From the NCBI GenBank assembly GCA_016176295.1, contig JACOXN010000005.1:2156-66155 (forward strand): a DNA stretch of 64,000 nucleotides, read 5' to 3'. Position numbers and translations under genes: made by a program. Positions 4,977-52,984 of the stretch are shown here, piece after piece. The stretch is from Candidatus Giovannonibacteria bacterium. Its GTDB lineage: Bacteria; Patescibacteriota; Minisyncoccia; UBA11713; 2-01-FULL-45-33. Every line of letters begins with the position of its first letter. The stretch's first letter is position 1. The notes below the pieces were generated by a model, which was not told the DNA's origin, searched no databases, and saw only the letters and a program-made list of their open reading frames with translations.

Positions 4977-5092
4977 TTCTTTCTCCTTTTTCATTTTTTG
5001 TTTTCGCATAGGATACTGGAATTAAACTTAACAATTAAGCGCTTTTGTGTCAAAAAGATTGACAATTAAACTTTTTCAGTTATAATGATTAT

Positions 5093-5633
5093 GTTCTTTG
5101 CCGGATAGCTGCTCCGACGTTCGATTAACCTCGGCAGTCGGAGAGGAAAGTCCGAACACCGCCAATTTTGCTTGCAATTTTGGCAGAGACAGTGGCTAAC
5201 GGCCACGCTTTTCCGGAGAAATCCGGAAGGGACGGAAACTCCGACGTAAAAGTCGGAGCTCCGACTTCACTATTAAATTTTGATAGTGCGTCGGAGGTGC
5301 AACAGAAAATATACAGCCGCTTCACCCCTAAAGGGCAAAGAGGCAATGGTGAAATCGTGCGGTAAGAGCGCACGTCTTATGTACGCGAGTACATAAGGTT
5401 GAAAACACCTGTCCGGTGCAACCCTGTGATTCGCTTAGGCGGATAAAGGGGCTCGAGTCTGAGAGCAATCGAAGACCTAGACAGATGGCTATCGCCGCCA
5501 ATGCTTCGCATTGGCCGCAGATGGATGCGGATTAGAAAATATCTGCGCAGATCAGCGCTGATAAAATCTGCGTATATCTGCGAACCACTGCGGAGCAGTG
5601 GTGTGTACAGAATTCGGCTTATAGGCAGAGAAC
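5093..5633 (+). ncRNA. rnpB: RNase P RNA (bacterial type-A-like), unusually long (541 nt)
   Basis: Universal blocks GAGGAAAGTCCGAACAC (P4 5' strand), GGTGAAATCGTGCGGTAAGAGCGCAC and ACAGAATTCGGCTTATAGG (P4 3' strand) are present. The 5' GTTCTTTGCC (5093-5102) pairs fully with the 3' GGCAGAGAAC (5624-5633) as P1. GATAGC and GCTATC form P2. Confidence 0.93.
5611..5633 (+). repeat. Direct repeat copy 1 (AATTCGGCTTATAGGCAGAGAAC), the authentic 3' end of rnpB
   Basis: Exact 23-mer, repeated at 6311-6333. Confidence 0.95.
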
Positions 5634-5637
5634 GACA

Positions 5638-5672
5638 ACGGCCCCGACTTTAAATGTCGCGGGCCGTTTGGT
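5638..5672 (+). terminator. Hairpin terminator immediately after rnpB copy-1 3' end
   Basis: ACGGCCC(C)GAC-loop-GTCGCGGGCCGT followed by TTTGGTTT. Confidence 0.6.
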
Positions 5673-5805
5673 TTACCCCTCTAAATCTCCCCTTATAAAG
5701 GGGAGAAAAATAAATTTTTTCCCCCTTTAATAAAGAGGGGAGGTTAATTTCCCAAAACTTTGATAACCAGCTTTTTGGCGGGTTTCCCGACGCCCATTTT
5801 TTCAC

Positions 5806-5833
5806 TTGATTTTTATGAGTTTGAGAGTATAAT
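5806..5833 (+). promoter_or_regulatory. Putative sigma70-type promoter of hicB (leaderless layout)
   Basis: TTGATT (5806-5811), 16-nt spacer, TATAAT (5828-5833). The ATG at 5840 lies only 6 nt after the -10 box, and there is no SD sequence. Confidence 0.55.
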
Positions 5834-5839
5834 TAAGCC

Positions 5840-6073
5840 ATGAAAAAGCGCAAAGAAAATATATTGCAATATGAAGTTATTTTGGAGCCGAATGGAGCGG
5901 GCTATACTGTTACTGTGCCAAAATTGCCCGGCTTGATTACGGAAGGCAACAACATTAAAGAAGCCCGTGAAATGGCTAAGGATGCGATCAAATGTTATCT
6001 GGAGGCGCTGCTTAAAGACGGGCTGTCCGTGTTTGGTTCGGCCCGGCGCGAAAAAATTACTGTTGGCGGGTAG
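5840..6073 (+). CDS. hicB: HicB-family antitoxin (UPF0150-like)
   Basis: 77 aa. YEVILEPNGAGYTVTVPKLPGLITEGNNIKEAREMAKDAIKCYLEAL is the typical HicB N-terminal fold signature. It sits directly upstream of hicA. Confidence 0.8.
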   Translation: MKKRKENILQYEVILEPNGAGYTVTVPKLPGLITEGNNIKEAREMAKDAIKCYLEALLKDGLSVFGSARREKITVGG

Positions 6074-6079
6074 TTCAAT

Positions 6080-6307
6080 TTGCCCAAATTACCGCGTATA
6101 CCTTCTGCATTGGTTATAAAGGCTCTCAAACGAGCCGGTTTTTATGAATATCATCAAAGCGGCAGCCATATCCAGCTTCGTCATTCCGCTAAACAGCAAT
6201 TAAGAGTTACAATTCCTTTTCATCGAAAAGAACTTACGCCAAAAACTTTAAAATCCATCATAAAACAGGCAGGTTTAGCGGTGTACGAATTTATAAAATT
6301 GATTTAG
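6080..6307 (+). CDS. hicA: HicA-family mRNA interferase toxin
   Basis: 75 aa, TTG start. LKRAGFYEYHQSGSHIQLRH matches the HicA/YcfA GSH motif. It lies 6 nt after hicB. Confidence 0.8.
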   Translation: MPKLPRIPSALVIKALKRAGFYEYHQSGSHIQLRHSAKQQLRVTIPFHRKELTPKTLKSIIKQAGLAVYEFIKLI

Positions 6308-6310
6308 TAA

Positions 6311-6333
6311 AATTCGGCTTATAGGCAGAGAAC
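6311..6333 (+). repeat. Direct repeat copy 2 of the rnpB 3' end (orphan)
   Basis: Exact copy of 5611-5633. Upstream identity stops at the base before AATTC, and downstream identity stops after GAAC. Confidence 0.95.
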
Positions 6334-6334
6334 C

Positions 6335-6369
6335 ACAAAACCTGTCGCCATCTGGCGGATAGGTTTTGT
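6335..6369 (+). terminator. Strong hairpin after repeat copy 2 (probable original rnpB terminator)
   Basis: ACAAAACCT (6335-6343) pairs with AGGTTTTGT (6361-6369). An inner CGCC/GGCG stem is also present. Confidence 0.55.
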
Positions 6370-6391: not shown

Positions 6392-7714
6392 ATGTCGGAA
6401 AAACCCAAATTTGAGTATTCACAAAGCAAAAGCCCAGAAAATCGAGAAAAAACATATGGAGATTTGCAATCGAGAATGGAAGAATTTGTCGATCCGAAAA
6501 AAGCAGAATTAAAAGATATTACTGAAACGCACTGGTATATCCCAAGAAAGATTGATATTGAAAGATTGTGCAAAATAGCCGAACTATCTCAAAAAAATAG
6601 TGATGGCAACAATAAGCAGATTAAAATTCTTGATTTGGGAGGCGGAAAGGGTTTCTTATCAAAATTGATGGCAGACAGCATAAGCGAAAAAAACAGAGAA
6701 GGGATGGTTGTCGACCTTGATTTGGACCAAGAAACACTTCAAAATGCCGCAAAATTTTATAAAAAAACGCAAAACTTACATTTTGTAGCAAGTAATTCAG
6801 AATATGAGGCGGTTAATGTTTTTAATAAAAAATTTGATCTAATAATTAATTCATGGTCATATCCCAAAGAAGAGTATGGCGGACCTGATTATTCTTCGAC
6901 GATCAAAAAACTTAAACCGGCATATTTTGTAAATATTAGCGAAGAACGCCAGGATGATACGGCAGCATTTGATGCCGGCGAAGATTACATCAAAATCGGA
7001 GAATGGTCGGGACTGGATACGATGGAGGTTGTAACCGGCAATTTAGCACACATAGATAGTTATTATTCAGACAAAAGAAGGAAATTATTAAAACAAAACG
7101 GCAGTAATCTTTTTGAAATTTATGTAAGAAAAGACATCGGTGGTGATGAGCAGGATAAATTGCGGAAAGAGCTAGGCAGCGTACAAGTGAAGAAGAAATA
7201 CAAATGGGAAAGAACGCTTGAGAAGCTCTATCCCAATATTTCACCCGTTAATTTCGATAAAGAATCTTTTTTGCAAGAAGGACAACCAGAGGAAGACATA
7301 ATCAAAAAGATCGGCAGGCGGGTCGAAACTTCCAGAATCGGGAACACACTCATAGACGTCGAGGCTTTGAACAAATTTGCTGAAAATTTGCCGATTGAAA
7401 CTGTGTCGGTTGATTCACTTAAAGATTATGTGAGCGAAGGTAATACTTATTGGGCCGCTGAGGACAGTAGTAAATTAGGGCCTTACCAAATTTTACAAGA
7501 TTGGGAAGCTGCACAAAAAAATCCGCTTTGGGCAAAACATATAGAGAGCATAAAAAATGCCAATCTTGATAATCCAATCTGGATCTCACCCGACGGAATT
7601 GTTTTCGACGGCATGCACCGTCTTACCCGCGCGTTCATTGACGGTGCCAAAGAAATAAAAGTTCGCCGATTTAAAGAAATCCCCAAAGAGGCGATTATTG
7701 AGGAAGCTAAGTAG
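6392..7714 (+). CDS. Fusion protein: class I SAM-dependent methyltransferase (N-terminal) plus ParB/sulfiredoxin-like domain (C-terminal)
   Basis: Motif I is ILDLGGGKGF, with an acidic beta-2 end VVDLD and motif IV-like DLIINSW. The C-terminus PIETVSVDSL...HIESIKNANLDNPIWISPDGIVFDGMHRLTRAFIDGAKEIKVRRF carries the ParB-N-like DGxHR signature. Confidence 0.7.
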   Translation: MSEKPKFEYSQSKSPENREKTYGDLQSRMEEFVDPKKAELKDITETHWYIPRKIDIERLCKIAELSQKNSDGNNKQIKILDLGGGKGFLSKLMADSISEKNREGMVVDLDLDQETLQNAAKFYKKTQNLHFVASNSEYEAVNVFNKKFDLIINSWSYPKEEYGGPDYSSTIKKLKPAYFVNISEERQDDTAAFDAGEDYIKIGEWSGLDTMEVVTGNLAHIDSYYSDKRRKLLKQNGSNLFEIYVRKDIGGDEQDKLRKELGSVQVKKKYKWERTLEKLYPNISPVNFDKESFLQEGQPEEDIIKKIGRRVETSRIGNTLIDVEALNKFAENLPIETVSVDSLKDYVSEGNTYWAAEDSSKLGPYQILQDWEAAQKNPLWAKHIESIKNANLDNPIWISPDGIVFDGMHRLTRAFIDGAKEIKVRRFKEIPKEAIIEEAK

Positions 7715-7743: not shown

Positions 7744-7962
7744 TCAATCCTCCAAAACTTTTACAATAAGTTTTTTTGTCGGTTTGGGCTGACCCATTTT
7801 TTTCATAAGGACTCCCACTTGTTCCAAAGTATATATTCTATAATTATTTATCGGATGGCGGGACGCGGCGAATTTCCCTGTTTTATCCCAGTTTCGGAGC
7901 GTTAGTTCCGTTACTCCTATCAATTCGGCTGCCTGGCTTATTGTGAGATATTGTTTGCTCAT
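7744..7962 (-). CDS. Small MerR/excisionase-type HTH DNA-binding protein
   Basis: 72 aa. LTISQAAELIGVTELTLRNWDKTGKFAASRHPINNYRIYTLEQV matches the MerR-type HTH pattern. It is convergent with the MTase-ParB gene. Confidence 0.7.
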   Translation of the reverse strand: MSKQYLTISQAAELIGVTELTLRNWDKTGKFAASRHPINNYRIYTLEQVGVLMKKMGQPKPTKKLIVKVLED

Positions 7963-8013: not shown

Positions 8014-8607
8014 ATGAATATCAGGAAATACGGCGCAATTTTAGGAGTGGCAGCGGCGCTTCTTTTGGTTTCCGGAGTCTGGTTTTTTGCCGGCAAAAAA
8101 GGTGAAAATTTCTCTCCGCGCCTTAATCTGGCTTCTTTCTTCTCATCAATAGTAGACTCGGGTGAGGATAGCGTGTCCGTTGAATCGCCGATAAAAGAGG
8201 AAGGCAGCCATTTCTCATACACCCATCCCGTTTACAAATATTCTTTTTTTTACCCCAAAGGTTTTATCGCCTCGCCCATGAAATATTCTGAAGATTCGGA
8301 AACGCTGGTGGTGGAAAAAGGCGATAGGCAGGGATTCCAGATATTCGCGGCGCCTTTTGAGGAAGAAAACGCCCTCACGGCGGAGAGGATAGCCCAAGAC
8401 CTCCCTGACCTTGTCATGAAAAATGCCGTAAAGGTTACTTTCGGCGGGAATAATATCCAGGGTGTGGCTTTTTCGAGCCATGATGAAGAAGTTGGGGACA
8501 CTTACGAAGTGTGGTTTACCTACGGAGGGAATTTGTACCAGGTGATGGCGTACAAGGAATTTGAAAAAGGATTGCAGGATATTTTGGCAACGTTTAAATT
8601 TGAATGA
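8014..8607 (+). CDS. Hypothetical membrane-anchored/secreted protein
   Basis: 197 aa with an N-terminal TM/signal segment (AILGVAAALLLVSGVWFFAG). No recognisable motif. Its last codons overlap a remnant of a NYN-gene 3' tail (see findings). Confidence 0.6.
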   Translation: MNIRKYGAILGVAAALLLVSGVWFFAGKKGENFSPRLNLASFFSSIVDSGEDSVSVESPIKEEGSHFSYTHPVYKYSFFYPKGFIASPMKYSEDSETLVVEKGDRQGFQIFAAPFEEENALTAERIAQDLPDLVMKNAVKVTFGGNNIQGVAFSSHDEEVGDTYEVWFTYGGNLYQVMAYKEFEKGLQDILATFKFE

Positions 8608-8651
8608 CCAAAAAGGTTATTTTACAAAAAAAAAAGAAAAAGCCCAATAAA

Positions 8652-8688: not shown

Positions 8689-9120
8689 ATGGAAAGAATA
8701 TGGCATAATGGAAATATGGAAAAAGATTTTCAAAATTGGCATAATAAAAAGTCTAATATTGATAAAATTGAGAAACGGCCGTTTTTTCACGAGCGGGAAA
8801 TTTGGTTTTGCTACCTGGGAGCAAATATCGGGTTTGAACAGGACGGAAGCGGAGAGGAGTTTTTAAGGCCGGTATTAATTGTCCGCAAGTTTAATAATGA
8901 GATTTTTTGGGGGATACCGCTTACTAAAGCCCATAAAAAACTTGCTAAAAAAGCGGAAAAATATTACTTTTCATTTTCGTTTATTTCTGATATAAAAAGT
9001 GCCGCAATTTTATCACAAATTAGATTGATAGACGCAAGGAGACTGAGTCGTCATATAGGTATTATGCCGGATGCCGAATTTATCAAGTTAATAGAAAAGC
9101 TCAAGGCGTTATTGCCGTGA
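8689..9120 (+). CDS. PemK/MazF-like toxin-fold protein
   Basis: EREIWFCYLGANIGFEQDGSGEEFLRPVLIVRKF fits the MazF/PemK N-terminal pattern (Iw..dlg...G.Eq.G..RPvlv). The alternative start ATG at 8716 is preceded by CATAAT plus 6 nt. Confidence 0.7.
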   Translation: MERIWHNGNMEKDFQNWHNKKSNIDKIEKRPFFHEREIWFCYLGANIGFEQDGSGEEFLRPVLIVRKFNNEIFWGIPLTKAHKKLAKKAEKYYFSFSFISDIKSAAILSQIRLIDARRLSRHIGIMPDAEFIKLIEKLKALLP

Positions 9121-9199
9121 GCTTTTCTCGTTTTTCCCCTGCCTTGCGGCAGAGTCGGGCCGAAGCCATTTGTCACTCCATTATAGCAAAACCACAAAC

Positions 9200-9210
9200 C
9201 ATGTCAAGTC
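9200..9210 (+). repeat. CATGTCAAGTC junction 11-mer, copy 2
   Basis: It is embedded in an approximately 45-bp block shared with 9940-9990 (TTATA.CA...AAACCATGTCAAGTC.AATTGTGAATAACA). Confidence 0.8.
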
Positions 9211-9215
9211 AAATT

Positions 9216-9362
9216 GTGAATAACAGATTAAGCCAAAATTTAATGCTCAAAATTTCACATTTTGCGTTGGCATTTTCTATTTTGATTTTTGTATTTTCCA
9301 TTTTTCCCGCAAAATCGGTCCATATCGGCTATTGGAGTTTTGATTGGAAAAATGCGGTATAA
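9216..9362 (+). pseudogene. Truncated 5' copy of a LamG-domain gene (start, signal peptide and GYWSFD motif only)
   Basis: VNNRLSQNLMLKISHFALAFSILIFVFSIFPAKSVHIGYWSFDWKNAV* parallels the N-terminus of the intact gene (MNNKLIQLPLFSLVFFVILF...GLVGYWSFDGSDMAV). It forms part of track ORF 9117..9362. Confidence 0.75.
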
Positions 9363-9385
9363 TAAGCATAAGGCATAATAAAGGA

Positions 9386-9928
9386 ATGAAAAATAAATCA
9401 AATAACTTTGTTTATATTGACGGCGCCAACTTGTACAAAGGCTTGGAAAGCTCAGGCTGGGCGATGGATTACGGGAGATTTAGGGTGTGGTTAACTGAAA
9501 AATACGGAATTAAGCATGCATATATTTTTATCGGGCTCATACCAAAATACAAAGATCTTTACAAATATTTACAGGAATCGGGTTTTACTTTGGTTTTCAA
9601 AGAAGTAATTTACGATGGAAACGGAAAACCAAAAGGAAATTGCGACGCCGATCTGGTTCTACAGGCTGCGTGCGATGCGTATGAAAATAAATTTGAAAAA
9701 GCGATTGTAGTTTCAAGCGATGGGGACTATGCTGGTTTGATAAAATTTCTTAGCGAACGCGGAAAATTGGAAATAATTTTATCGCCACACGCAAAAAATC
9801 TCTGCTCGATTCTTCTCAAAAGAACTGGCGCGCCGATCGCTTACTTGAATGATCAAAAGATTATTTTACAAAGCCAAAAAGAAAAAGCCCCCGGTGCGGA
9901 CGGAACCGCACAAGGGTCTTTCTCGTAA
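9386..9928 (+). CDS. NYN-domain (LabA-like) putative RNase
   Basis: NFVYIDGANLY, CDADLVLQA and IVVSSDGDYAGLIKFL match the NYN/LabA acidic motifs. The ATG at 9386 (MKNKSNNF) is preferred over the track start at 9344. Confidence 0.8.
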   Translation: MKNKSNNFVYIDGANLYKGLESSGWAMDYGRFRVWLTEKYGIKHAYIFIGLIPKYKDLYKYLQESGFTLVFKEVIYDGNGKPKGNCDADLVLQAACDAYENKFEKAIVVSSDGDYAGLIKFLSERGKLEIILSPHAKNLCSILLKRTGAPIAYLNDQKIILQSQKEKAPGADGTAQGSFS

Positions 9929-9959
9929 GTATTGCCTTTATTATACACCCCCCAAAAAC

Positions 9960-9970
9960 CATGTCAAGTC
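9960..9970 (+). repeat. CATGTCAAGTC junction 11-mer, copy 3
   Basis: It lies upstream of the intact LamG gene. It is followed by a 19-bp tandem duplication, TCGAATTGTGAATAACAAA x2 (9969-9987 and 9988-10006), that duplicates the GTG start. Confidence 0.85.
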
Positions 9971-9994
9971 GAATTGTGAATAACAAATCGAATT

Positions 9995-12031
9995 GTGAAT
10001 AACAAATTAATCCAGCTTCCGCTTTTTTCTTTGGTATTTTTTGTAATTCTTTTTCTAAATCCGCAAAAAGCGGAAGCCGACATAATTTTCAAAGTTCCCC
10101 CCAGCCTCGGCCTTATCTCCGGCCTCGTCGGCTATTGGTCTTTCGATGGCTCCGACATGGCCGTAAACACCGCCTTCGATCGCTCGGGGCAGGGAAACAA
10201 CGGCACCCTCACCGGAGGTCCTTCCCGCATCGAAGGCAAACTCGGTCAGGCGCTCTCTTTTGATGGGGTGGATGATTATGTGAGTTTTGGTGGCGGGGCA
10301 GGGACAGTTGCTTATGTTCAATCAAAAGATGCCAGAAACGCAGCTCAAGCAACTACCATAGCTGTAACATTCACTAGCGCCACAGTTTCGGGCAATGCTA
10401 TAGTCGGAGCCGTAACATGGGGTTGCGCTTTCGCCGATTTAACTTCGGTTACAGACAATAAAGGAAATTCATACACTCTAAAAACCAGGGCTGAAGACGC
10501 AGGCAACACACAATCAATTCAAGCTTTTTATGCAAAAAATATTACCGGCGGTGCTACTCATACCATCACCGCCAATATTAACGGAAGCTGCTCTTTTAGA
10601 GCCATTGCAGTTCATGAAGTAAGCGGGGTTGACACAACCGCTCCGGATGATGGCAGCAATCAGCAATTTCAAAGCGCTCCGGGGACAGGCACTAACGCGC
10701 TGACATCAGGTTCATTTACGACCAGCGCCAACGGCGATTATATTTTTAGCGCCACACAAGATACTAGTGCCAACACCGCATCCCATACCGCCGGTACAAC
10801 CATTAGCTATACGCGCGTTACAAATGGTTCATCGGCAGATGTGGATTTTGCTTCAGAATGGGGGACTCAAACAACAGCCGGCTCTGTGGCGGGGACTTGG
10901 ACAAGCAATGAGAATAACGGTCATGTAACTGCGGCGATAGGATTGAAACCCGCGGCGGGCGCCGGCCCCAGTTTAAGCACAAACAGTATTTCCTTCTGGA
11001 TGAAAGCTGCGACCAGCACGACGCAAAGCATAATTGATTTGAACGGCACCGCCACCATCACGGAATCGAGCGGCACCCTCTCCGCAAATAACTTCACAAG
11101 CCCGACTATTTATGTGGACGGAGTGTCGGGCGGGACGGCAAATGACACGAATTGGCATCATGTTGTGGTAACGACGAATTCGGCTATAACGGCGAATGCG
11201 ATTACTATCGGCAAAGCCAGCGGAAGTGTTTTCGGAGGCCGCATCGACGATATCCGCATCTACAACCGCGCCCTCTCTTCCGACGAAATCAAACGCCTCT
11301 ACCGCGTCGGGGCGACTTTGCATGTGAATACAAAAATAAATAATGATTCGCTTGCAAAAGGCCTTGTGGGCTGGTGGAGTTTCGACGGGCCCGACATGGC
11401 GATTAACACCGCTCTCGACCGCTCCGGCCAAGGAAACAACGGCACCCTCACCAACGGCCCCACTCGCACCATCGGCAAACTCGGCCAGGCTTTGAGTTTT
11501 GATGGGACATCATCGGGTGGAGGGAATGATGTTGTAGACCTTGGTGCGACAGCGATTTTAACGGGAAGAGAAAGCGCTTGGGCCATCTGCAGCTGGGTAA
11601 AGATCGATTCTATTCCGCCAACCAGTGGGTCATATATGATTTATAACAGGCGAACGGACAGCGGCGGAGGAGGAAATTTCTCTTTTTATGTGGGAGACTG
11701 GACACTAAGTGATCGACGATGGGCGGTAAGCACAAACAATGGCGCATGGACCGATATGTTCGCTTCATCGCTGATGCCTATTGGAGAGTGGACCTATTTG
11801 TGCGCAACTAGTAATGGTTCTAATATATTTTTTTACTTCAATGGGAGTCCGGACGGGTCTCAAACATATGTGTTGCCGTCAAATGTGGCCAATCTAAGGC
11901 AAACCCTCGGTGCTTTTTGGAACAGTGGCGTGCCAGATGATGTGTTGGACGGCATCATCGACGATGTCCGCGTCTACAACAGGGCGCTTTCCGCAGACGA
12001 AATCAAAAGGCTATATAATTTGGGGAGGTAG
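9995..12031 (+). CDS. Secreted LamG/concanavalin-A-like lectin-fold protein with two LamG modules
   Basis: GTG start with an N-terminal signal/TM segment. Two homologous modules are present: GLVGYWSFDGSDMAVNTAFDRSGQGNNGTLTGGPSRIEGKLGQALSFDG...IDDIRIYNRALSSDEIKRLYRVG and GLVGWWSFDGPDMAINTALDRSGQGNNGTLTNGPTRTIGKLGQALSFDG...IDDVRVYNRALSADEIKRLYNLGR. Confidence 0.85.
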   Translation: MNNKLIQLPLFSLVFFVILFLNPQKAEADIIFKVPPSLGLISGLVGYWSFDGSDMAVNTAFDRSGQGNNGTLTGGPSRIEGKLGQALSFDGVDDYVSFGGGAGTVAYVQSKDARNAAQATTIAVTFTSATVSGNAIVGAVTWGCAFADLTSVTDNKGNSYTLKTRAEDAGNTQSIQAFYAKNITGGATHTITANINGSCSFRAIAVHEVSGVDTTAPDDGSNQQFQSAPGTGTNALTSGSFTTSANGDYIFSATQDTSANTASHTAGTTISYTRVTNGSSADVDFASEWGTQTTAGSVAGTWTSNENNGHVTAAIGLKPAAGAGPSLSTNSISFWMKAATSTTQSIIDLNGTATITESSGTLSANNFTSPTIYVDGVSGGTANDTNWHHVVVTTNSAITANAITIGKASGSVFGGRIDDIRIYNRALSSDEIKRLYRVGATLHVNTKINNDSLAKGLVGWWSFDGPDMAINTALDRSGQGNNGTLTNGPTRTIGKLGQALSFDGTSSGGGNDVVDLGATAILTGRESAWAICSWVKIDSIPPTSGSYMIYNRRTDSGGGGNFSFYVGDWTLSDRRWAVSTNNGAWTDMFASSLMPIGEWTYLCATSNGSNIFFYFNGSPDGSQTYVLPSNVANLRQTLGAFWNSGVPDDVLDGIIDDVRVYNRALSADEIKRLYNLGR

Positions 12032-12063
12032 ATTTTTAGGACAAAATATGCTATAATTGGCGC

Positions 12064-12336
12064 ATGAACAAACCAACCGCGCCGATTAGAAAGCAAAAGT
12101 TACCCGTTTCGTTTAAACGGCTTTTGTGGTCGTACGATTTCAATGCTATTGATGCGGAGCAATATAAAAGAACTATAATAGTAAATGTAGTTAATTACGG
12201 CAATCTCTCGGAATGGCGTTGGATTAAAAAACATTACGGCCGCCTAGAAATAAAAAAAATATTACATGAAATAAAGCCTACGGAGATCAGGAACGGTGCC
12301 CGGAAATTAGCCTCTCTTATTTTAGCCGCAAATTAA
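12064..12336 (+). CDS. Small hypothetical protein, probable partner of the downstream AbiEii-like nucleotidyltransferase
   Basis: 90 aa. The LLWSYDFNAIDAEQYKRTIIVNVVNYGNLSEWRWIKKHYG pattern is one I have seen upstream of DUF1814-type genes. It ends 9 nt before the next gene. TATAAT (12052-12057) lies 6 nt before the ATG. Confidence 0.5.
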   Translation: MNKPTAPIRKQKLPVSFKRLLWSYDFNAIDAEQYKRTIIVNVVNYGNLSEWRWIKKHYGRLEIKKILHEIKPTEIRNGARKLASLILAAN

Positions 12337-12345
12337 GATTTATAT

Positions 12346-12963
12346 ATGCATTCAGAGGCACTTACCAAAGAAGGCGCGAAAGTTTTCAAGAAACTCAAAG
12401 CAATAAAGGGTTTTTATTTAGCCGGCGGTACAGCCCTGGCATTGCAAATCGGGCACCGGATATCCGTTGATTTTGATTTGTTCTCAAATAAAAAAATCAA
12501 AAAAACGCTTTTATCGCAAATAGAGAAATTACTTGCAGGCGATAAAATTGAAATCTCGGTTAATAACAGTGATGAACTCACTTTATTTATAAATGGCGTT
12601 AAGGTTACTTTTTTGCATTATCCGTTTCCTGTGCTTAAACCTTTTATCAAACACGACTCATTTCCTTTACTCAGCGTCGAGGAAATTGCCGCAACCAAGG
12701 CATATACTATCGGCCGGCGCGGATCCTACAAAGATTATGTAGACATTTTTTTTGTTTTAAGCGGCAAATATACGAATTTAGAAGATGTGTTAAGTTTTGC
12801 CAATCGTAAATACGGCGATGCGTTTAATGGGCGGCTTTTTTTGGAACAATTGGCGTATTGGGGCGATATTAAAGACGAAAAAATAGTGTTTTTGGGCAAA
12901 GAGACAGGCCTTCAAGCGGTAAAACAATTTTTTGAAAAAACAATAAAAACCATTAAACTGTAA
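12346..12963 (+). CDS. Nucleotidyltransferase AbiEii/AbiGii toxin family (DUF1814-like), short form
   Basis: FYLAGGTALALQIGHRISVDFDLF is the characteristic N-terminal NTase motif of this family. Confidence 0.75.
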   Translation: MHSEALTKEGAKVFKKLKAIKGFYLAGGTALALQIGHRISVDFDLFSNKKIKKTLLSQIEKLLAGDKIEISVNNSDELTLFINGVKVTFLHYPFPVLKPFIKHDSFPLLSVEEIAATKAYTIGRRGSYKDYVDIFFVLSGKYTNLEDVLSFANRKYGDAFNGRLFLEQLAYWGDIKDEKIVFLGKETGLQAVKQFFEKTIKTIKL

Positions 12964-13081
12964 AATCATCGCTGATGTCGAGGGATTAAAAGGCTTTACA
13001 ATTAGTACAGGTAGATTTGACTTTGTTGCCGATTCATATAAAATAAGGAGTATATTCCTATTATTTAATTTTTATTAAAAT

Positions 13082-13643
13082 ATGCTTATTATAAAGCGTT
13101 ATTTGGGAGAAAAGATTTCAAAAAATCTTGGAAAGAAGAAAATCCTGATCATTTATGGGGCAAGGCAAGTGGGTAAGACCACACTGGTCAAAGATTTCTT
13201 ATATGAGCTATTTGGATATTTTGGAAAAACTTTGTATTATTTTCCCCTTAAAGCCATTTTTTTCAAATAAAAGAAAATCAATTTCTAAGCTGAGGAAGTA
13301 TTATTTTTATGATCTTGGCGTAAGGAATGCCGTCGTTGACGACTTTACTCCCATAGAAAGCCGAAAGGACTCCGGGGCTTTGTGGGAGAATTTTTGTATT
13401 GTGGAAAGAATGAAGCGCAACGATACTGCCGGCCGCTTAGCCAATTATTATTTTTGGCGTTCTTACCAGAGGGAGGAAATTGATATGATTGAGGTTGAAA
13501 ATGAAAACATATACGGTTTTGAGTTTAAGCGGGAAATGCAATCGTTAGATAAAAAAATAAAAGAAATTTATACGCAAGATTTGGCAGGGAAGGGTGATTT
13601 GGAAGTGATTTCCTCTGAAAATTTTCGTAACTTTGTAACATGA
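13082..13643 (+). pseudogene. Decayed AAA+ ATPase (AAA_14/DUF4143 type): internally deleted and frameshifted
   Basis: The N-terminal fragment carries Walker A (ILIIYGARQVGKTTLVKDFL; ORF 13082..13270). The C-terminal DUF4143-like fragment (KYYFYDLGVRNAVV...YYFWRSYQREEIDMI; ORF 13155..13643) is in another frame. The ATPase core between them is missing. Confidence 0.75.
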
Positions 13644-13688
13644 TTTTCGGCGGCGGAAATCAAACGGCTTTACAATTTGGGACGCTAA
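13644..13688 (+). pseudogene. Orphan 3' stub of a LamG-domain gene
   Basis: TTTTCGGCGGCGGAAATCAAACGGCTTTACAATTTGGGACGCTAA translates to FSAAEIKRLYNLGR*. The intact gene ends LSADEIKRLYNLGR*. Confidence 0.8.
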
Positions 13689-22744: not shown

Positions 22745-22778
22745 GCGGGATTAGTTTAGTGGCAGAATGGCTGCTTCC
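22745..22778 (+). pseudogene. Orphan 5' half of tRNA-Gly (acceptor, D-arm, anticodon stem up to the anticodon)
   Basis: Exact 34-nt copy of 23121-23154 (GCGGGATTAGTTTAGTGGCAGAATGGCTGCTTCC). It diverges inside the anticodon. Confidence 0.9.
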
Positions 22779-22857
22779 TCCGCCAAAAGTCGCCTGGGGC
22801 GACATTTAGGCGGACCCGTCAAAATGGCCTTCGGCCTTTTGTCGGGCAAGCAAAAAA

Positions 22858-23130
22858 ATGTTTTACACTTACGTATTATTATGCATTGATAAGCAGCGGT
22901 CGCGAAGTAAATTTTATATTGGTTCAACTGAAGATTTGCGTGAAAGGTTGAGGCAGCATAAGAGTGGAAGTGTGGATACTACAAAAAGTTTTGATGAGGT
23001 CTTGTTAATTTATTTTGAAGCTTGTCTAAATAAAACAGACGCAAGAAAAAGAGAGTTGCAATTAAAAACAAGTTTTGGCAGAGGCTATTTAAAAAAGAGA
23101 TTAGAAGGTTATTTCGATAAGCGGGATTAG
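22858..23130 (+). CDS. Small GIY-YIG nuclease-superfamily protein (YhbQ/UPF0213-like)
   Basis: FYTYVLLC...KFYIGSTEDLRERLRQH...RELQLK provides the GIY, YIG, Arg and Glu motifs. The stop TAG (23128-23130) lies inside the first 10 nt of tRNA-Gly. Confidence 0.85.
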   Translation: MFYTYVLLCIDKQRSRSKFYIGSTEDLRERLRQHKSGSVDTTKSFDEVLLIYFEACLNKTDARKRELQLKTSFGRGYLKKRLEGYFDKRD

Positions 23131-23191
23131 TTTAGTGGCAGAATGGCTGCTTCCCAAGCAGCAGGTACGAGTTCGATTCTCGTATCCCGCA
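23121..23191 (+). tRNA. tRNA-Gly (anticodon CCC)
   Basis: Cloverleaf folded by hand. Acceptor GCGGGAT/ATCCCGC, anticodon stem GCTGC/GCAGC with loop TTCCCAA, T-arm ACGAG-TTCGATT-CTCGT. CCA is not encoded. Confidence 0.9.
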
Positions 23192-23211
23192 CAGAAGCTT
23201 CAAATTTAATT

Positions 23212-51931: not shown

Positions 51932-52984
51932 ATGGCAAAACAAAAAGAAGTCAGCCCGAGGCTGACCAGCCCTGGGCTGGAAAAAATGACAAAAGAAAAT
52001 CGTTGGAAAGAAGTCGATGCGGCGGTAAAAGACATTCAGTCGCGTTTCGGCGAAGGTATTCTGATGAAAATGGGTGAGATGCCCAAAGTAGACGTGGATG
52101 TAATACCCACGGGTTCACTGGGTCTTAACATGGCGCTGGGCGTAGGCGGTGTTCCCCGCGGAAGAATAATCGAAATTTACGGTCCTGAATCTTCGGGAAA
52201 AACCACGTTGGCGCTCCACATTGTTTCCGAAGCGCAGAAGAAAGGCGGTATTTGCGCTTTCGTTGACGCGGAGCATGCGCTGGACCCGGAGTACGGCAGG
52301 CGCCTCGGAGTAAAGATCGATGATCTGTTGATCTCGCAGCCCGATACCGGAGAACAGGCATTGGATGTAGTGGAATCACTGGTGCGGTCCGGACGGATAG
52401 ATGTTATCGTTGTGGATTCGGTTGCGGCTCTCACCCCCAAAGCTGAAATAGAGGGCGATATGGGCCAGCAGCACATGGGGCTGCAAGCGCGCCTTATGTC
52501 CCACGCATTGCGGAAACTGACGGCCATAGTCGCCAAATCAAAAACAGTGGTCATATTCATAAACCAGGTGAGGATGCAGATCGGAATAATGTTCGGAAAC
52601 CCCGAGACGACCACAGGAGGAAAAGCGCTTAAATTTTATTCTTCCGTGAGGATAGAGGTGCGCCGCGCGGCACAGATAAAAAAAGGCGAAGAAATAATCG
52701 GGAATCGCGTAAAAGCCAAAGTGGTAAAAAATAAAGTTGCCCCGCCTTTCCGGGCGACAGAGTTCGATATTCTTTACAATCAGGGAATTTCCTACGAAGG
52801 TGAACTTCTGGGGCTGGGAGAAAAGTACGAAGTAATCAAAAAATCAGGCGCCTCATATGCTTTTGGCAGCGTATCACTGGGGAGGGGTTATGACTCCGCG
52901 AGGGCCAAGCTTCAGGAAGACAAAAAATTAGCGCACGAATTGGAAGCTGCCATCAGAGAGGCGGCTAACAAAGCAACGGAGTAA
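51932..52984 (+). CDS. recA: Recombinase RecA
   Basis: [15 protein letters not shown] Walker [10 protein letters not shown] and the L2 region [21 protein letters not shown]. Confidence 0.97.

What the first reader, a model, noticed from the sequence alone, without database searches (positions are those of the whole stretch)
5611..6369. The 3' end of RNase P RNA is duplicated around a 677-bp hicBA cassette, so rnpB appears to have served as an integration site
The 23-mer AATTCGGCTTATAGGCAGAGAAC occurs exactly twice. The first copy (5611-5633) is the genuine P4/P1 3' strand of rnpB and pairs with 5093-5102. The second copy lies at 6311-6333. Between the copies is a self-contained unit: a new hairpin terminator (5638-5672), two GGGGAG/CTCCCC-type hairpins, a promoter, hicB and hicA. 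The second copy is followed by a strong hairpin (6335-6369) that looks like the original rnpB terminator. This is the attL/attR signature normally seen at tRNA or tmRNA 3' ends. I am not aware of rnpB being a commonly described target. No integrase or transposase is present, so this is either a remnant or a cassette mobilised in trans.
Basis: partly seen in the sequence, partly recalled or inferred. Interest (0 to 1): 0.72.

Follow-up and report, generated by a model that had tools for sequence, protein, structure and literature searches.

The report
Toxin-antitoxin cassette inserted behind RNase P RNA
A small hicBA toxin-antitoxin cassette sits just behind the RNase P RNA gene of a Giovannonibacteria (CPR) genome and is bracketed by two copies of that gene's last 23 bases; no integrase is present, and several other small accessory genes in this and related genomes are bracketed by leftover gene ends in the same way, so this looks like a general way of acquiring genes that does not depend on rnpB.

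Summary
rnpB (5093-5637) ends in a 23-mer that recurs exactly at 6311-6333, and the repeat runs to 27 of 28 bases. A promoter-to-stop hicB-hicA cassette lies between the copies, and each copy is followed by a strong hairpin.

Relatives show the uninterrupted order pepN-rnpB-terminator-MerR, so the cassette is an insertion.

The attL/attR reading is only partly supported, for these reasons:
- No integrase or transposase was found in the 64 kb.
- The duplicated target also includes a remnant of the convergent MerR gene's 3' tail. In a second lineage (MAG MFHL01) it includes the terminator.
- In MFHL01 the same cassette and rnpB fragment lie away from rnpB.
- Close homologues of this cassette elsewhere are flanked by duplications of unrelated local sequences.
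- The window itself holds further cases: a NYN gene, an array of LamG-tail remnants, and an orphan tRNA-Gly 5' half next to a GIY-YIG nuclease gene.

Displaced coding tails differ mostly at synonymous sites, so they diverged while still functional.

Best model: host homologous recombination anchored in invariant gene ends, leaving a displaced rnpB 3' end. This resembles rhs C-terminal displacement. RecA is encoded in the window. The mechanism is inferred, not shown.

The parts
5059..5086 (+). rnpB promoter (TTGACA-16-TATAAT, 12 of 12 matches)
5093..5637 (+). rnpB, bacterial class A RNase P RNA. It is unusually long (545 nt, against 384-409 nt in most of the relatives retrieved; L007 has 543 nt and L013 506 nt).
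   Evidence: Rfam RF00010, 135.9 bits, full model 1-367.
5611..5638 (+). Repeat copy 1: the functional P4/P1 3' strand of rnpB (23 nt exact) plus 5 more nt, 4 of which match copy 2
5637..5668 (+). Hairpin that now follows rnpB (term1). It resembles none of the rnpB terminators retrieved from relatives, so it may have arrived with the insert.
   Evidence: Fold -21.6 kcal/mol, z -4.55. No similarity to relatives' terminators.
5684..5745 (+). Pair of GGGGAG/CTCCCC hairpins of unknown role. No other copy exists in the window.
   Evidence: Fold -32.4 kcal/mol. Self-BLAST found no other copy.
5744..5802 (-). Remnant of the 3' coding tail of a MerR-like gene (reverse strand reads ...KMGVGKPAKKLVIKVLGN*). 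It ends 3 nt before the hicB -35 box (5806-5811).
   Evidence: 88% identical over 59 nt to the L003 MerR 3' end. Translation. 87% identical to the MFHL01-type tail against 72% to the window's own MerR tail.
5806..5833 (+). hicBA promoter (TTGATT-16-TATAAT). The mRNA is leaderless or nearly so. The promoter is homologous in other cassettes of this family.
   Evidence: 32 of 37 positions identical to L003. Promoter alignment by eye.
5840..6073 (+). hicB antitoxin (77 aa). Only the N-terminal HicB-like fold matches; no DNA-binding domain was detected.
   Evidence: PF15919, E 5.5e-10, 39.9 bits, profile positions 3-55 of 123
6080..6307 (+). hicA toxin (75 aa)
   Evidence: PF07927, E 1.2e-20, 73.8 bits. 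312 homologues with E<=1e-10; the named ones are Parcubacteria/Patescibacteria.
6311..6338 (+). Repeat copy 2: a displaced (orphan) rnpB 3' end that starts 3 nt after the hicA stop codon
   Evidence: Same junction in L003.
6335..6369 (+). Hairpin after copy 2 (term2). It probably terminates hicBA. It resembles native rnpB terminators of L012 and L005 only weakly.
   Evidence: Fold -20.7 kcal/mol, z -5.58. Score 13 against background 8-10.
6392..7714 (+). Context: a 440-aa methyltransferase-domain gene inserted between term2 and MerR. It is absent from relatives; MFHL01 has a different (unidentified) gene at this position.
7744..7962 (-). Context: the intact MerR-like gene (72 aa), a conserved neighbour of rnpB in this clade

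Best explanation
A minimal hicB-hicA toxin-antitoxin cassette, running from its -35 box to the hicA stop codon, was recombined into the junction between rnpB and the convergent MerR-like gene. The 23-mer at 6311-6333, probably together with the hairpin after it, is a displaced 3' end of an rnpB gene. It is not the core of a site-specific att site.

The most likely mechanism is host homologous recombination anchored in the invariant 3' strand of rnpB. The incoming DNA could be a circle carrying [rnpB 3' end - terminator - MerR tail - hicBA] that integrates by a single crossover. It could also be a linear fragment taken up from a relative that already carried the insert, with one crossover in the rnpB body and the other in the 23-mer. 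Either route leaves rnpB intact and followed by foreign downstream sequence (term1 and the MerR-tail remnant). The old or partner 3' end is pushed downstream of the cargo. Recombination between the two copies can remove the cassette again without a scar.

Shown: the duplication; the insertion relative to relatives; the cassette boundaries; the MerR-tail remnant and its greater similarity to a foreign MerR; the same architecture at other loci and for other cargo; the absence of an integrase; the presence of recA.

Inferred: that RecA-type recombination is the agent; the direction of the event; any circular intermediate.
For: - Insertion against the empty arrangement: L005, L008, L010 and L012 read pepN-rnpB-terminator-MerR-TPR-MurJ. 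The window has hicBA at exactly the rnpB/MerR junction.
- The upstream copy of the duplicated target ends 0-9 nt before the hicB -35 box, and the downstream copy starts 0-5 nt after the hicA stop. This holds in the window, L003, L018 and L036; in L019 only the downstream boundary does.
- The duplicated target exceeds the 23-mer. There is a MerR-tail remnant in the window and in L003. In MAG MFHL01, 53 nt of terminator and spacer after the fragment (L003) match the sequence after the real rnpB (L011), with score 32 against background 8-10.
- The window's MerR remnant is 87% identical to the MFHL01-type MerR tail but only 72% to the window's own. The two halves of the duplication therefore have different histories.
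- Displaced coding tails keep the reading frame and differ mainly at synonymous sites. The LamG tail at 13645-13681 reads AEIKRLYNLGR* like the resident tail, and 6 of 7 changed codons are silent (counted by hand). This means they diverged while functional and were then brought together.
- The pattern is general. Flanking duplications are significant for hicBA in L018 (16 against shuffle maximum 12), L019 (18 against 13) and L036 (23.5 against 14). They involve unrelated sequences.
- In the window, every short-range direct repeat that is not intragenic brackets a small accessory gene.
- No integrase was found in 64 kb. RecA (51932-52984) and SSB are present.
- Jackson et al. 2009 (PMC2935791) proposed the same scheme for rhs tips: homologous recombination in a conserved block, possibly through a circle.
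Against: - A 23-28 nt stretch of identity is at the lower limit for efficient RecA-dependent recombination. That limit is from my own knowledge, not tested here.
- The model explains spread between genomes that share the anchor. It does not explain how a new target first acquired a duplication.
- No isogenic empty site or circular junction was found. The empty loci come from relatives whose rnpB is only about 77% identical.
- Only two lineages carry the rnpB version, and the second was found by searching for the exact 19-mer, which is an ascertainment bias.
- hicBA synonymous sites between the two lineages are nearly saturated (pS 0.66-0.70). The event or events are therefore old, or the true donors are unsampled.
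- The rearranged state in MFHL01 needs an extra, unexplained step. It also relies on correct binning of that MAG.
- Four of about nine independent hicBA contexts show no flanking repeat.
Confidence: 0.55

Rival explanations
1. Classical site-specific integration. The rnpB 3' end is the attB of a small integrative element, the two 23-mers are attL and attR, and the integrase is encoded elsewhere (acting in trans) or has been lost.
For: - A direct repeat made of the 3' end of a stable RNA gene, with the gene restored at one junction, is the pattern of tRNA and tmRNA islands.
- Relatives have single-copy, uninterrupted sites.
- Contig L016 ends exactly at the last base of the 23-mer. An assembly graph that branches at this junction would produce that.
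Against: - No integrase or transposase in 64 kb, nor in the ORFs immediately downstream of rnpB in L011 and L013.
- The insert is only a promoter-to-stop gene pair.
- The duplication includes a MerR tail and, in MFHL01, the terminator.
- Close homologues of the cassette are flanked by unrelated duplicated sequences with no common core.
- The 19-mer was not found in 2.9 million viral contigs.
Confidence: 0.12
2. In situ duplication at the time of insertion. This would be either a transposition-like event with widely staggered cuts or replication template switching (fork stalling and return upstream of the departure point). In this reading both copies derive from the resident rnpB 3' region.
For: - Variable-length duplications of arbitrary local sequence (cores of 21-37 nt; extended similarity up to about 70-190 nt) flank the same cassette at several loci.
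- Cassette edges are precise.
- In MFHL01 the fragment's terminator resembles that genome's own rnpB terminator.
Against: - Identity is two-tiered: a core of 90-100% and flanks of 60-70%.
- Displaced coding tails differ mostly by synonymous changes. That is not what neutral decay of a fresh duplicate gives.
- The window's MerR remnant is closer to another lineage's MerR than to its own.
- No terminal inverted repeats or transposase were seen.
Confidence: 0.15
3. Copy 2 is kept by selection because it works as RNA. As the 3' untranslated end of the hicBA transcript it would mimic the 3' end of RNase P RNA, for example as a processing or stability signal, or as a partner for the rnpB 5' strand.
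For: The 23-mer after hicA is 23 of 23 identical in the window and in MFHL01. Third-codon positions of hicBA are only 53% identical and pS is 0.66-0.70. The sequence right after the 23-mer is not conserved between the two lineages.
Against: - The second lineage was found by searching for the exact sequence.
- Conservation is also expected if the copy is repeatedly renewed by recombination with the invariant resident rnpB.
- Other cassettes of the same family carry unrelated sequences at this position.
- No covariation test is possible because P1 does not vary in the set.
Confidence: 0.08
4. The repeat is a chance match or an assembly artefact.
For: None.
Against: None of 100 shuffles gave even one match. 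An independent assembly is identical. The same junction occurs in a second lineage.
Confidence: 0.01

Closest known systems
Genomic islands and prophages integrated at the 3' ends of tRNA and tmRNA genes (tyrosine-integrase att sites)
   Same: A stable RNA gene is the target. The insert is bracketed by a direct repeat of the gene's 3' end. The gene stays intact at one junction and a displaced 3' fragment lies at the other. Excision between the repeats would leave no scar. The region downstream of the RNA gene is a variable, accessory-gene-rich hot spot (5.6-14.8 kb here).
   Different: The target is rnpB, and my literature searches found no description of that. There is no integrase. The cargo is a 0.5-kb gene pair. 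The duplication extends into the neighbouring gene's tail. The same cargo uses unrelated targets elsewhere.
C-terminal displacement and orphan tips at rhs (and CDI) loci (Jackson et al. 2009, PMC2935791)
   Same: An intact gene is followed by cargo and then by displaced copies of its own 3' end. The copies begin at a conserved sequence block. Displaced ends are evolutionarily conserved, not randomly decayed. The proposed agent is homologous recombination in the conserved block, possibly through a circular intermediate. Arrays build up (LamG-tail array at 11988-13681; L019).
   Different: Here the displaced piece is not a toxin domain with its immunity gene. It is the end of an RNA gene, or of a LamG-domain, MerR or DeoC gene. 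The cargo is an independent, self-promoted TA or defence gene. The organisms are CPR bacteria.
Homology-facilitated illegitimate recombination after DNA uptake (described in PMC3240628 and the work it cites)
   Same: Foreign DNA is integrated with a homologous anchor on one side only. No element-encoded enzyme is needed. This suits bacteria that take up DNA.
   Different: It does not by itself produce a duplication of the anchor. Nothing here shows DNA uptake or the junction microhomologies that define it.
Integron gene cassettes
   Same: Small, mostly single-function cassettes sit in arrays, separated by a recurring sequence. TA cassettes are common cargo.
   Different: There is no IntI integrase, no attC-like imperfect palindromes and no common promoter. 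Each cassette has its own promoter, and the recurring sequence is a copy of the local host gene end.

Membership tests
Bacterial RNase P RNA, class A (rnpB) | Covariance-model score above the curated threshold over the full model | tested here: met
   RF00010, 135.9 bits against a gathering score of 100, model positions 1-367
Bacterial RNase P RNA, class A (rnpB) | The P1 helix closes the 5' and 3' ends, with the P4 3' strand upstream of it, using copy 1 | tested here: met
   The model alignment pairs 5093-5110 with 5616-5633. Using copy 2 would need a 700-nt insertion.
HicAB type II toxin-antitoxin | HicA toxin domain | tested here: met
   PF07927, 73.8 bits against cut-off 27, profile positions 4-58 of 58. 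An SGSH motif is present by inspection; its catalytic role is taken from my own knowledge and was not tested.
HicAB type II toxin-antitoxin | HicB antitoxin encoded next to the toxin in the same operon | tested here: met
   PF15919, 39.9 bits against cut-off 27. The genes are 6 nt apart on the same strand. Only the N-terminal fold matches (3-55 of 123); no DNA-binding domain was detected.
HicAB type II toxin-antitoxin | The toxin arrests growth and the antitoxin neutralises it | not testable with these tools
   Needs expression experiments.
Integrase-mediated island at an RNA-gene att site | Direct repeat of the RNA gene's 3' end at both ends of the insert, with the gene intact | tested here: met
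Integrase-mediated island at an RNA-gene att site | Integrase (tyrosine or serine recombinase) gene within or next to the insert | tested here: not met
   No recombinase domain in any ORF scanned across the 64 kb. A few ORFs have no Pfam match.
Integrase-mediated island at an RNA-gene att site | Unoccupied site in related genomes | tested here: met
   L005, L008, L010 and L012 read rnpB-terminator-MerR with one 23-mer. These relatives are distant (rnpB about 77% identical); no isogenic empty site was found.
Integrase-mediated island at an RNA-gene att site | The same core site is used by related elements; related cargo is tied to that site | tested here: not met
   The closest HicA homologues (88%, 83%, 76%) sit at other loci with other flanking repeats. 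In MFHL01 the cassette is not next to rnpB.
C-terminal displacement arrays (rhs type) | Intact gene followed by cargo and displaced copies of its 3' end that start at a conserved block | tested here: met
   rnpB. LamG in the window. LamG in L019 and DeoC in L036.
C-terminal displacement arrays (rhs type) | Displaced ends diverged under constraint (conserved reading frame, synonymous differences) | tested here: met
   The LamG tail at 13645-13681 reads AEIKRLYNLGR*, with 6 of 7 changed codons silent (counted by hand). This feature does not apply to the non-coding rnpB fragment.
C-terminal displacement arrays (rhs type) | The displaced tip is a polymorphic toxin domain followed by its immunity gene | tested here: not met
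   The cargo consists of self-contained HicBA, AbiEii/DUF6922, DUF4143, NYN and Fic genes. So it works like this family but is not a member.
Integron cassette | IntI integrase and attC recombination sites | tested here: not met
   No integrase. The flanking repeats are copies of host gene ends with no shared motif.
Transposable element with target-site duplication | Transposase and terminal inverted repeats; duplication of fixed length | tested here: not met
   No transposase. No inverted repeats at the cassette ends in the repeat finder. Repeat cores are 21-37 nt, with weaker similarity beyond them.

The most novel reading that the evidence does not exclude
In Parcubacteria (CPR bacteria), the invariant ends of essential or highly conserved genes may serve as recombination anchors for a cassette system that needs no integrase. 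Examples are the rnpB 3' strand, the C-terminal motif of LamG-domain genes and tRNA halves. Small self-promoted toxin-antitoxin, defence and nuclease genes would be inserted, stacked into arrays and exchanged between lineages by host RecA alone. Each event would leave a displaced gene end. The perfectly conserved rnpB fragment after hicA would then be the cassette's portable homology arm, kept intact because only cassettes with an intact arm keep spreading.
Probability: 0.35. Interest if true: 0.65.

Novelty: new variant of a known kind. Interest (0 to 1): 0.5.

Why it matters
Candidate Phyla Radiation bacteria have tiny genomes, and from my own knowledge few recognisable mobile elements have been described in them. 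Yet their accessory gene content varies. This locus, together with the parallel cases found here, suggests that small selfish or defensive genes enter and leave these genomes by recombination at conserved gene ends, without element-encoded enzymes. The parallel cases are LamG-tail arrays in two unrelated genomes, a NYN gene, and a GIY-YIG gene behind an orphan tRNA half.

If the pattern is general, displaced gene-end fragments would be a simple computational marker for recent gene gain in these genomes. rnpB would also join tRNA and tmRNA genes as a hot spot for variable DNA. For annotation, it is a warning that a fragment of an RNA gene after a coding gene can be a recombination scar and need not be a regulatory RNA.

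Tried and rejected
1. I used pepN, which neighbours rnpB in this clade, as an anchor to sample rnpB 3' junctions in closer relatives. The closest pepN homologues (50-60% aa; P0122, P0126, P0128-P0130) either lack rnpB next to pepN or sit on contigs that stop short of it.
2. The viral contig collection holds neither the 19-mer nor a HicA relative.
3. Literature searches for rnpB as an integration or attachment site returned only papers that mention rnpB as a marker gene. This is a limited, open-access search.
4. I tested recent horizontal transfer of hicBA between the window lineage and MFHL01 with synonymous divergence. pS is 0.66-0.70, close to the 0.73-0.80 of core genes, so I rejected it. 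The high protein identity (86% and 91%) reflects purifying selection.
5. Whether hairpin 6335-6369 is the native rnpB terminator: the similarity to the L012/L005 terminators is only weak, so this stays undecided.
6. A tRNA-like 3' fragment seen by eye after the second hicA of L018 was not confirmed by ARAGORN or Rfam.
7. There are no paralogous hicBA genes and no further copies of any insert sequence in the window.
8. I considered a diversity-generating retroelement as the source of the LamG-tail repeats. I rejected it because the scanned ORFs include no reverse transcriptase and the differences are not adenine-specific.
9. A group I intron as the explanation for the tRNA-Gly half duplication is unlikely. 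Rfam found no intron, and an intact tRNA follows the ORF.
Full report
**The observation**

The window carries a class A RNase P RNA gene at 5093-5637 (Rfam RF00010, 135.9 bits, full-length model). It has a perfect sigma-70-type promoter at 5059-5086. The 23-mer AATTCGGCTTATAGGCAGAGAAC occurs at 5611-5633 and 6311-6333 and nowhere else, even with three mismatches. None of 100 shuffles produced a match. The repeat continues for five more bases with one mismatch.

In the model alignment, copy 1 supplies the P4 and P1 3' strands and pairs with the 5' end of the gene. The 677 bp between the copies hold:
- a strong hairpin (5637-5668);
- a pair of GGGGAG/CTCCCC hairpins (5684-5745);
- a promoter (5806-5833);
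- hicB (5840-6073);
- hicA (6080-6307).

Copy 2 is followed by another strong hairpin at 6335-6369. An independently assembled Logan contig is identical over 3.8 kb, including both copies.

The stretch 5744-5802, just upstream of the hicB -35 box, is 88% identical to the 3' end of a MerR-like gene of a related genome. On the reverse strand it reads ...KMGVGKPAKKLVIKVLGN*. So the sequence between copy 1 and the hicB promoter is itself a copy of what normally follows rnpB in this clade, as the next section shows.

**Relatives and the empty arrangement**

I scanned the metagenome and genome collections for the last 19 bases of the repeat. The hits were rnpB 3' ends of Candidatus Giovannonibacteria and allies. 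Each had a single copy, apart from three chance hits in a coding gene.

In L005, L010 and L012 the order is pepN(-), rnpB, terminator, MerR(-), a TPR membrane protein and, where the contig reaches that far, MurJ. L008 shows the same order as far as MerR, where its contig ends. In L005, L008, L010 and L012 the rnpB terminator directly abuts the MerR stop codon. The window keeps this core order but carries three insert blocks:
- hicBA at the rnpB/MerR junction;
- a methyltransferase gene between the second hairpin and MerR;
- a 6.8-kb block of PemK, NYN, LamG, DUF6922/AbiEii, DUF4143 and Fic genes between MerR and the TPR gene.

hicBA is therefore an insertion, and the region downstream of rnpB is a variable hot spot. 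These relatives are distant (rnpB about 77% identical, pepN 37-42% at protein level). I found no isogenic empty site.

**A second lineage with the same cassette, away from rnpB**

L003 and L015 (the same sequence; L015 is contig 20 of MAG MFHL01) carry an orthologous cassette. HicB is 86% and HicA 91% identical, and the DNA is 80% identical. The cassette has the same junction to a MerR-tail remnant on the left (CAC|TTGATTTTTATGAG). On the right, the same 23-mer starts at the hicA stop codon.

There is no rnpB within 2 kb upstream; a P-type ATPase gene is there instead. The MAG's rnpB lies on another contig (L011), next to pepN. To the right, L003/L015 continues into an unidentified gene, then MerR, TPR, MurJ and LepA. 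So the cassette sits at the orthologous place, but the rnpB side has been separated, assuming the bin is correct.

The 53 nt after the fragment in L003 are homologous to the 53 nt after the real rnpB in L011 (score 32 against background 8-10). In that genome the duplicated segment therefore covers at least about 80 nt, including the terminator.

Synonymous sites of hicBA between the two lineages are nearly saturated (pS 0.66-0.70, against 0.73-0.80 for core genes). Third-codon positions are 53% identical, yet the 23-mer is 23 of 23 identical. That is not neutral. I read it with caution, because L003 was found by searching for the exact sequence.

**The cassette elsewhere**

HicA has 312 close homologues, and the named ones are from Parcubacteria and other Patescibacteria. 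I fetched nine independent genomic contexts. Four of them, and L003 in part, show flanking duplications of local sequence:

| Locus | Repeat | Score against shuffle maximum |
|---|---|---|
| Window | 28 nt (rnpB 3' end) | 25.5 against 13 |
| L018 | 21-nt core, 38 nt with gaps | 16 against 12 |
| L019 | several remnants of the upstream LamG gene's C-terminal coding end | 18 against 13 |
| L036 | 26-nt core inside about 70 nt, including a remnant of the 3' tail of a convergent DeoC gene | 23.5 against 14 |

In the window, L003, L018 and L036 the upstream copy ends at or within 9 nt of the hicB -35 box. In all five the downstream copy starts 0-5 nt after the hicA stop. The duplicated sequences have nothing in common with one another. 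Four contexts show no repeat.

**The same architecture for other genes in the window**

A self-comparison of the whole 64 kb finds only seven direct repeats, and two of them are domain repeats inside the LamG gene. Together with the pairwise comparison of intergenic regions, the remaining repeats show this:
- The rnpB repeat brackets hicBA.
- A 47-nt repeat (8600-8645 / 9845-9890) brackets PemK.
- A 37-nt repeat (9192-9228 / 9952-9988) brackets the NYN gene.
- The LamG C-terminal coding tail (11988-12024) recurs after AbiEii (12985-13018) and after DUF4143 (13645-13681). These copies fall below the threshold of the whole-window search.
- A perfect 34-nt repeat (22745-22778 / 23121-23154) is the first 34 nt of tRNA-Gly(CCC), duplicated around a 90-aa GIY-YIG nuclease gene.

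The LamG remnant at 13645-13681 still reads AEIKRLYNLGR*. It differs from the resident tail at seven codons, six of them silent (counted by hand). Such a copy diverged while it was part of a working gene and was then placed next to the resident one. It is not a freshly made duplicate that decayed.

The window's MerR remnant tells the same story. It is 87% identical to the MFHL01-type MerR tail and 72% to the window's own.

**Mechanism**

No integrase or transposase is encoded in the window's scanned ORFs. None was seen in the ORFs immediately downstream of rnpB in L011 and L013. RecA and SSB are present.

Five facts bear on the mechanism:
- the target sequences are unrelated;
- identity is two-tiered, with a near-perfect core and diverged flanks;
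- displaced tails look foreign and constrained;
- cassettes stack into arrays;
- no dedicated enzyme is present.

Together these fit best with homologous recombination anchored in strongly conserved gene ends. That is the scheme Jackson et al. proposed for rhs genes as C-terminal displacement, possibly through a circular intermediate (PMC2935791). A one-sided anchor with an illegitimate second junction is a related possibility (PMC3240628).

For rnpB, the invariant 3' strand is the anchor. After the event, rnpB is followed by incoming sequence (term1 and the MerR remnant), and a displaced rnpB 3' end follows the cargo. The fragment after hicA would stay perfect for two reasons: it is renewed by each recombination with a functional rnpB, and only cassettes with an intact arm continue to spread.

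I hold this at about 0.55. The insertion and the displaced-end reading are well supported. The agent is inferred.

Weak points:
- the identity is short (23-28 nt);
- there is no account of how a new target first gains its duplication;
- no empty or circular junction was found in the same population;
- only two lineages carry the rnpB version;
- the extra rearrangement in MFHL01 is unexplained.

**Rivals**

- A trans-acting site-specific recombinase (0.12) would give the same picture at rnpB. It does not fit the many unrelated targets or the extended duplication.
- An in situ duplication by staggered cutting or template switching (0.15) fits the variable lengths. It does not fit the synonymous-type divergence of the tails or the foreign-looking MerR remnant.
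- An RNA function for copy 2 (0.08) would explain its perfect conservation. There is no independent support, and other cassettes carry unrelated sequences at that position.
- Chance or artefact is excluded.

**Comparison with the known, and verdict**

The locus behaves like a tRNA or tmRNA island in outline: a stable RNA gene as target, a 3'-end repeat, an intact gene and a variable downstream region. It fails the defining tests of an integrase and a dedicated core site. It works like rhs C-terminal displacement but is not a member, because neither the displaced piece nor the cargo is a toxin tip with an immunity gene. HicBA and rnpB themselves are ordinary members of their families.

I found no paper naming rnpB as an integration hot spot. 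That search covers open-access text only.

I rate this a new variant of a known kind, with interest 0.5. The single locus is modest. What deserves follow-up is the recurring, integrase-free, gene-end-bracketed cassette architecture in CPR genomes.

Noticed in passing
window 22745-23192: The first 34 nt of tRNA-Gly(CCC) (23121-23192), up to anticodon position 34, are duplicated perfectly at 22745-22778. Between the orphan half and the intact tRNA lie an 80-nt structured spacer and a 90-aa stand-alone GIY-YIG nuclease gene (22858-23130, PF01541, E 7.6e-14). Its stop codon overlaps the tRNA start. Rfam detected no group I intron.
   Followed up: partly
window 11988-13681: The C-terminal coding tail of the LamG-domain gene (9995-12031; ...SADEIKRLYNLGR*) recurs after the DUF6922/AbiEii pair (12985-13018, GIKRLYN*) and after the DUF4143 gene (13645-13681, AEIKRLYNLGR*, mostly synonymous differences). 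This forms an array: gene tail - cassette - tail - cassette - tail - Fic.
   Followed up: partly
window 9192-9228 and 9952-9988: A 37-nt direct repeat (34 of 37 identical) brackets the NYN-domain gene (9344-9928). The second copy lies just upstream of the LamG start codon.
   Followed up: partly
window 8600-8645 and 9845-9890: A 47-nt direct repeat (87% identical) starts at the 3' end of the 197-aa ORF (8014-8607). Its second copy lies inside the 3' end of the NYN ORF, beyond the NYN domain. The pair brackets the PemK/MazF-like toxin gene (8689-9120).
   Followed up: no
L019 4643-5900 (Ga0209343_10004316): In an unrelated Parcubacteria contig, hicBA and a 73-aa ORF are each followed by remnants of the upstream LamG gene's tail. 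There are four tail copies in all, one frameshifted. A remnant of the hicB-type promoter precedes the 73-aa ORF, and a 211-aa ORF with a weak Y1 transposase match lies 660 nt downstream.
   Followed up: partly
L016 5446-5464 (JAUSHV010000026.1): This MAG contig ends exactly at the last base of the rnpB 23-mer. An assembly graph that branches at the rnpB 3' junction, because strains differ downstream, would produce that.
   Followed up: no
window 5500-5605: The window's rnpB is 545 nt, against 384-409 nt in most of the relatives retrieved (L007 has 543 nt and L013 506 nt). About 100 extra nt of hairpins lie just before the P4 3' strand, plus an 81-nt insertion near 5210-5290 in the model alignment.
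   Followed up: no
window 5840-6073: This HicB is only 77 aa and matches only the N-terminal half of the HicB-like profile. No DNA-binding domain was detected, so autoregulation of the operon, if any, must work differently from canonical HicB. The gene order is antitoxin first.
   Followed up: no
window 6392-7714 and L013 6669-6995: The C-terminal third of the 440-aa methyltransferase-domain protein has a homologue (39% over 109 aa) encoded about 200 nt downstream of rnpB, on the opposite strand, in a distant relative (L013). So related cargo recurs near rnpB in different arrangements.
   Followed up: no
L011 downstream of rnpB (positions +1376 to +2029 after the 23-mer): By eye, a 217-aa ORF with LAGLIDADG-like motifs (LGFLAADG, YFDGDGS) lies about 1.4 kb downstream of rnpB in MAG MFHL01, near two tRNA genes. 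I did not scan it against Pfam.
   Followed up: no
L018 4012-6680 (CP066691, Candidatus Niyogibacteria): Two hicBA pairs of the same family lie 1 kb apart in opposite orientation. One is flanked by a 21-38 nt duplication. The other is followed by a sequence that looks by eye like a tRNA 3' half, but neither ARAGORN nor Rfam calls it.
   Followed up: partly
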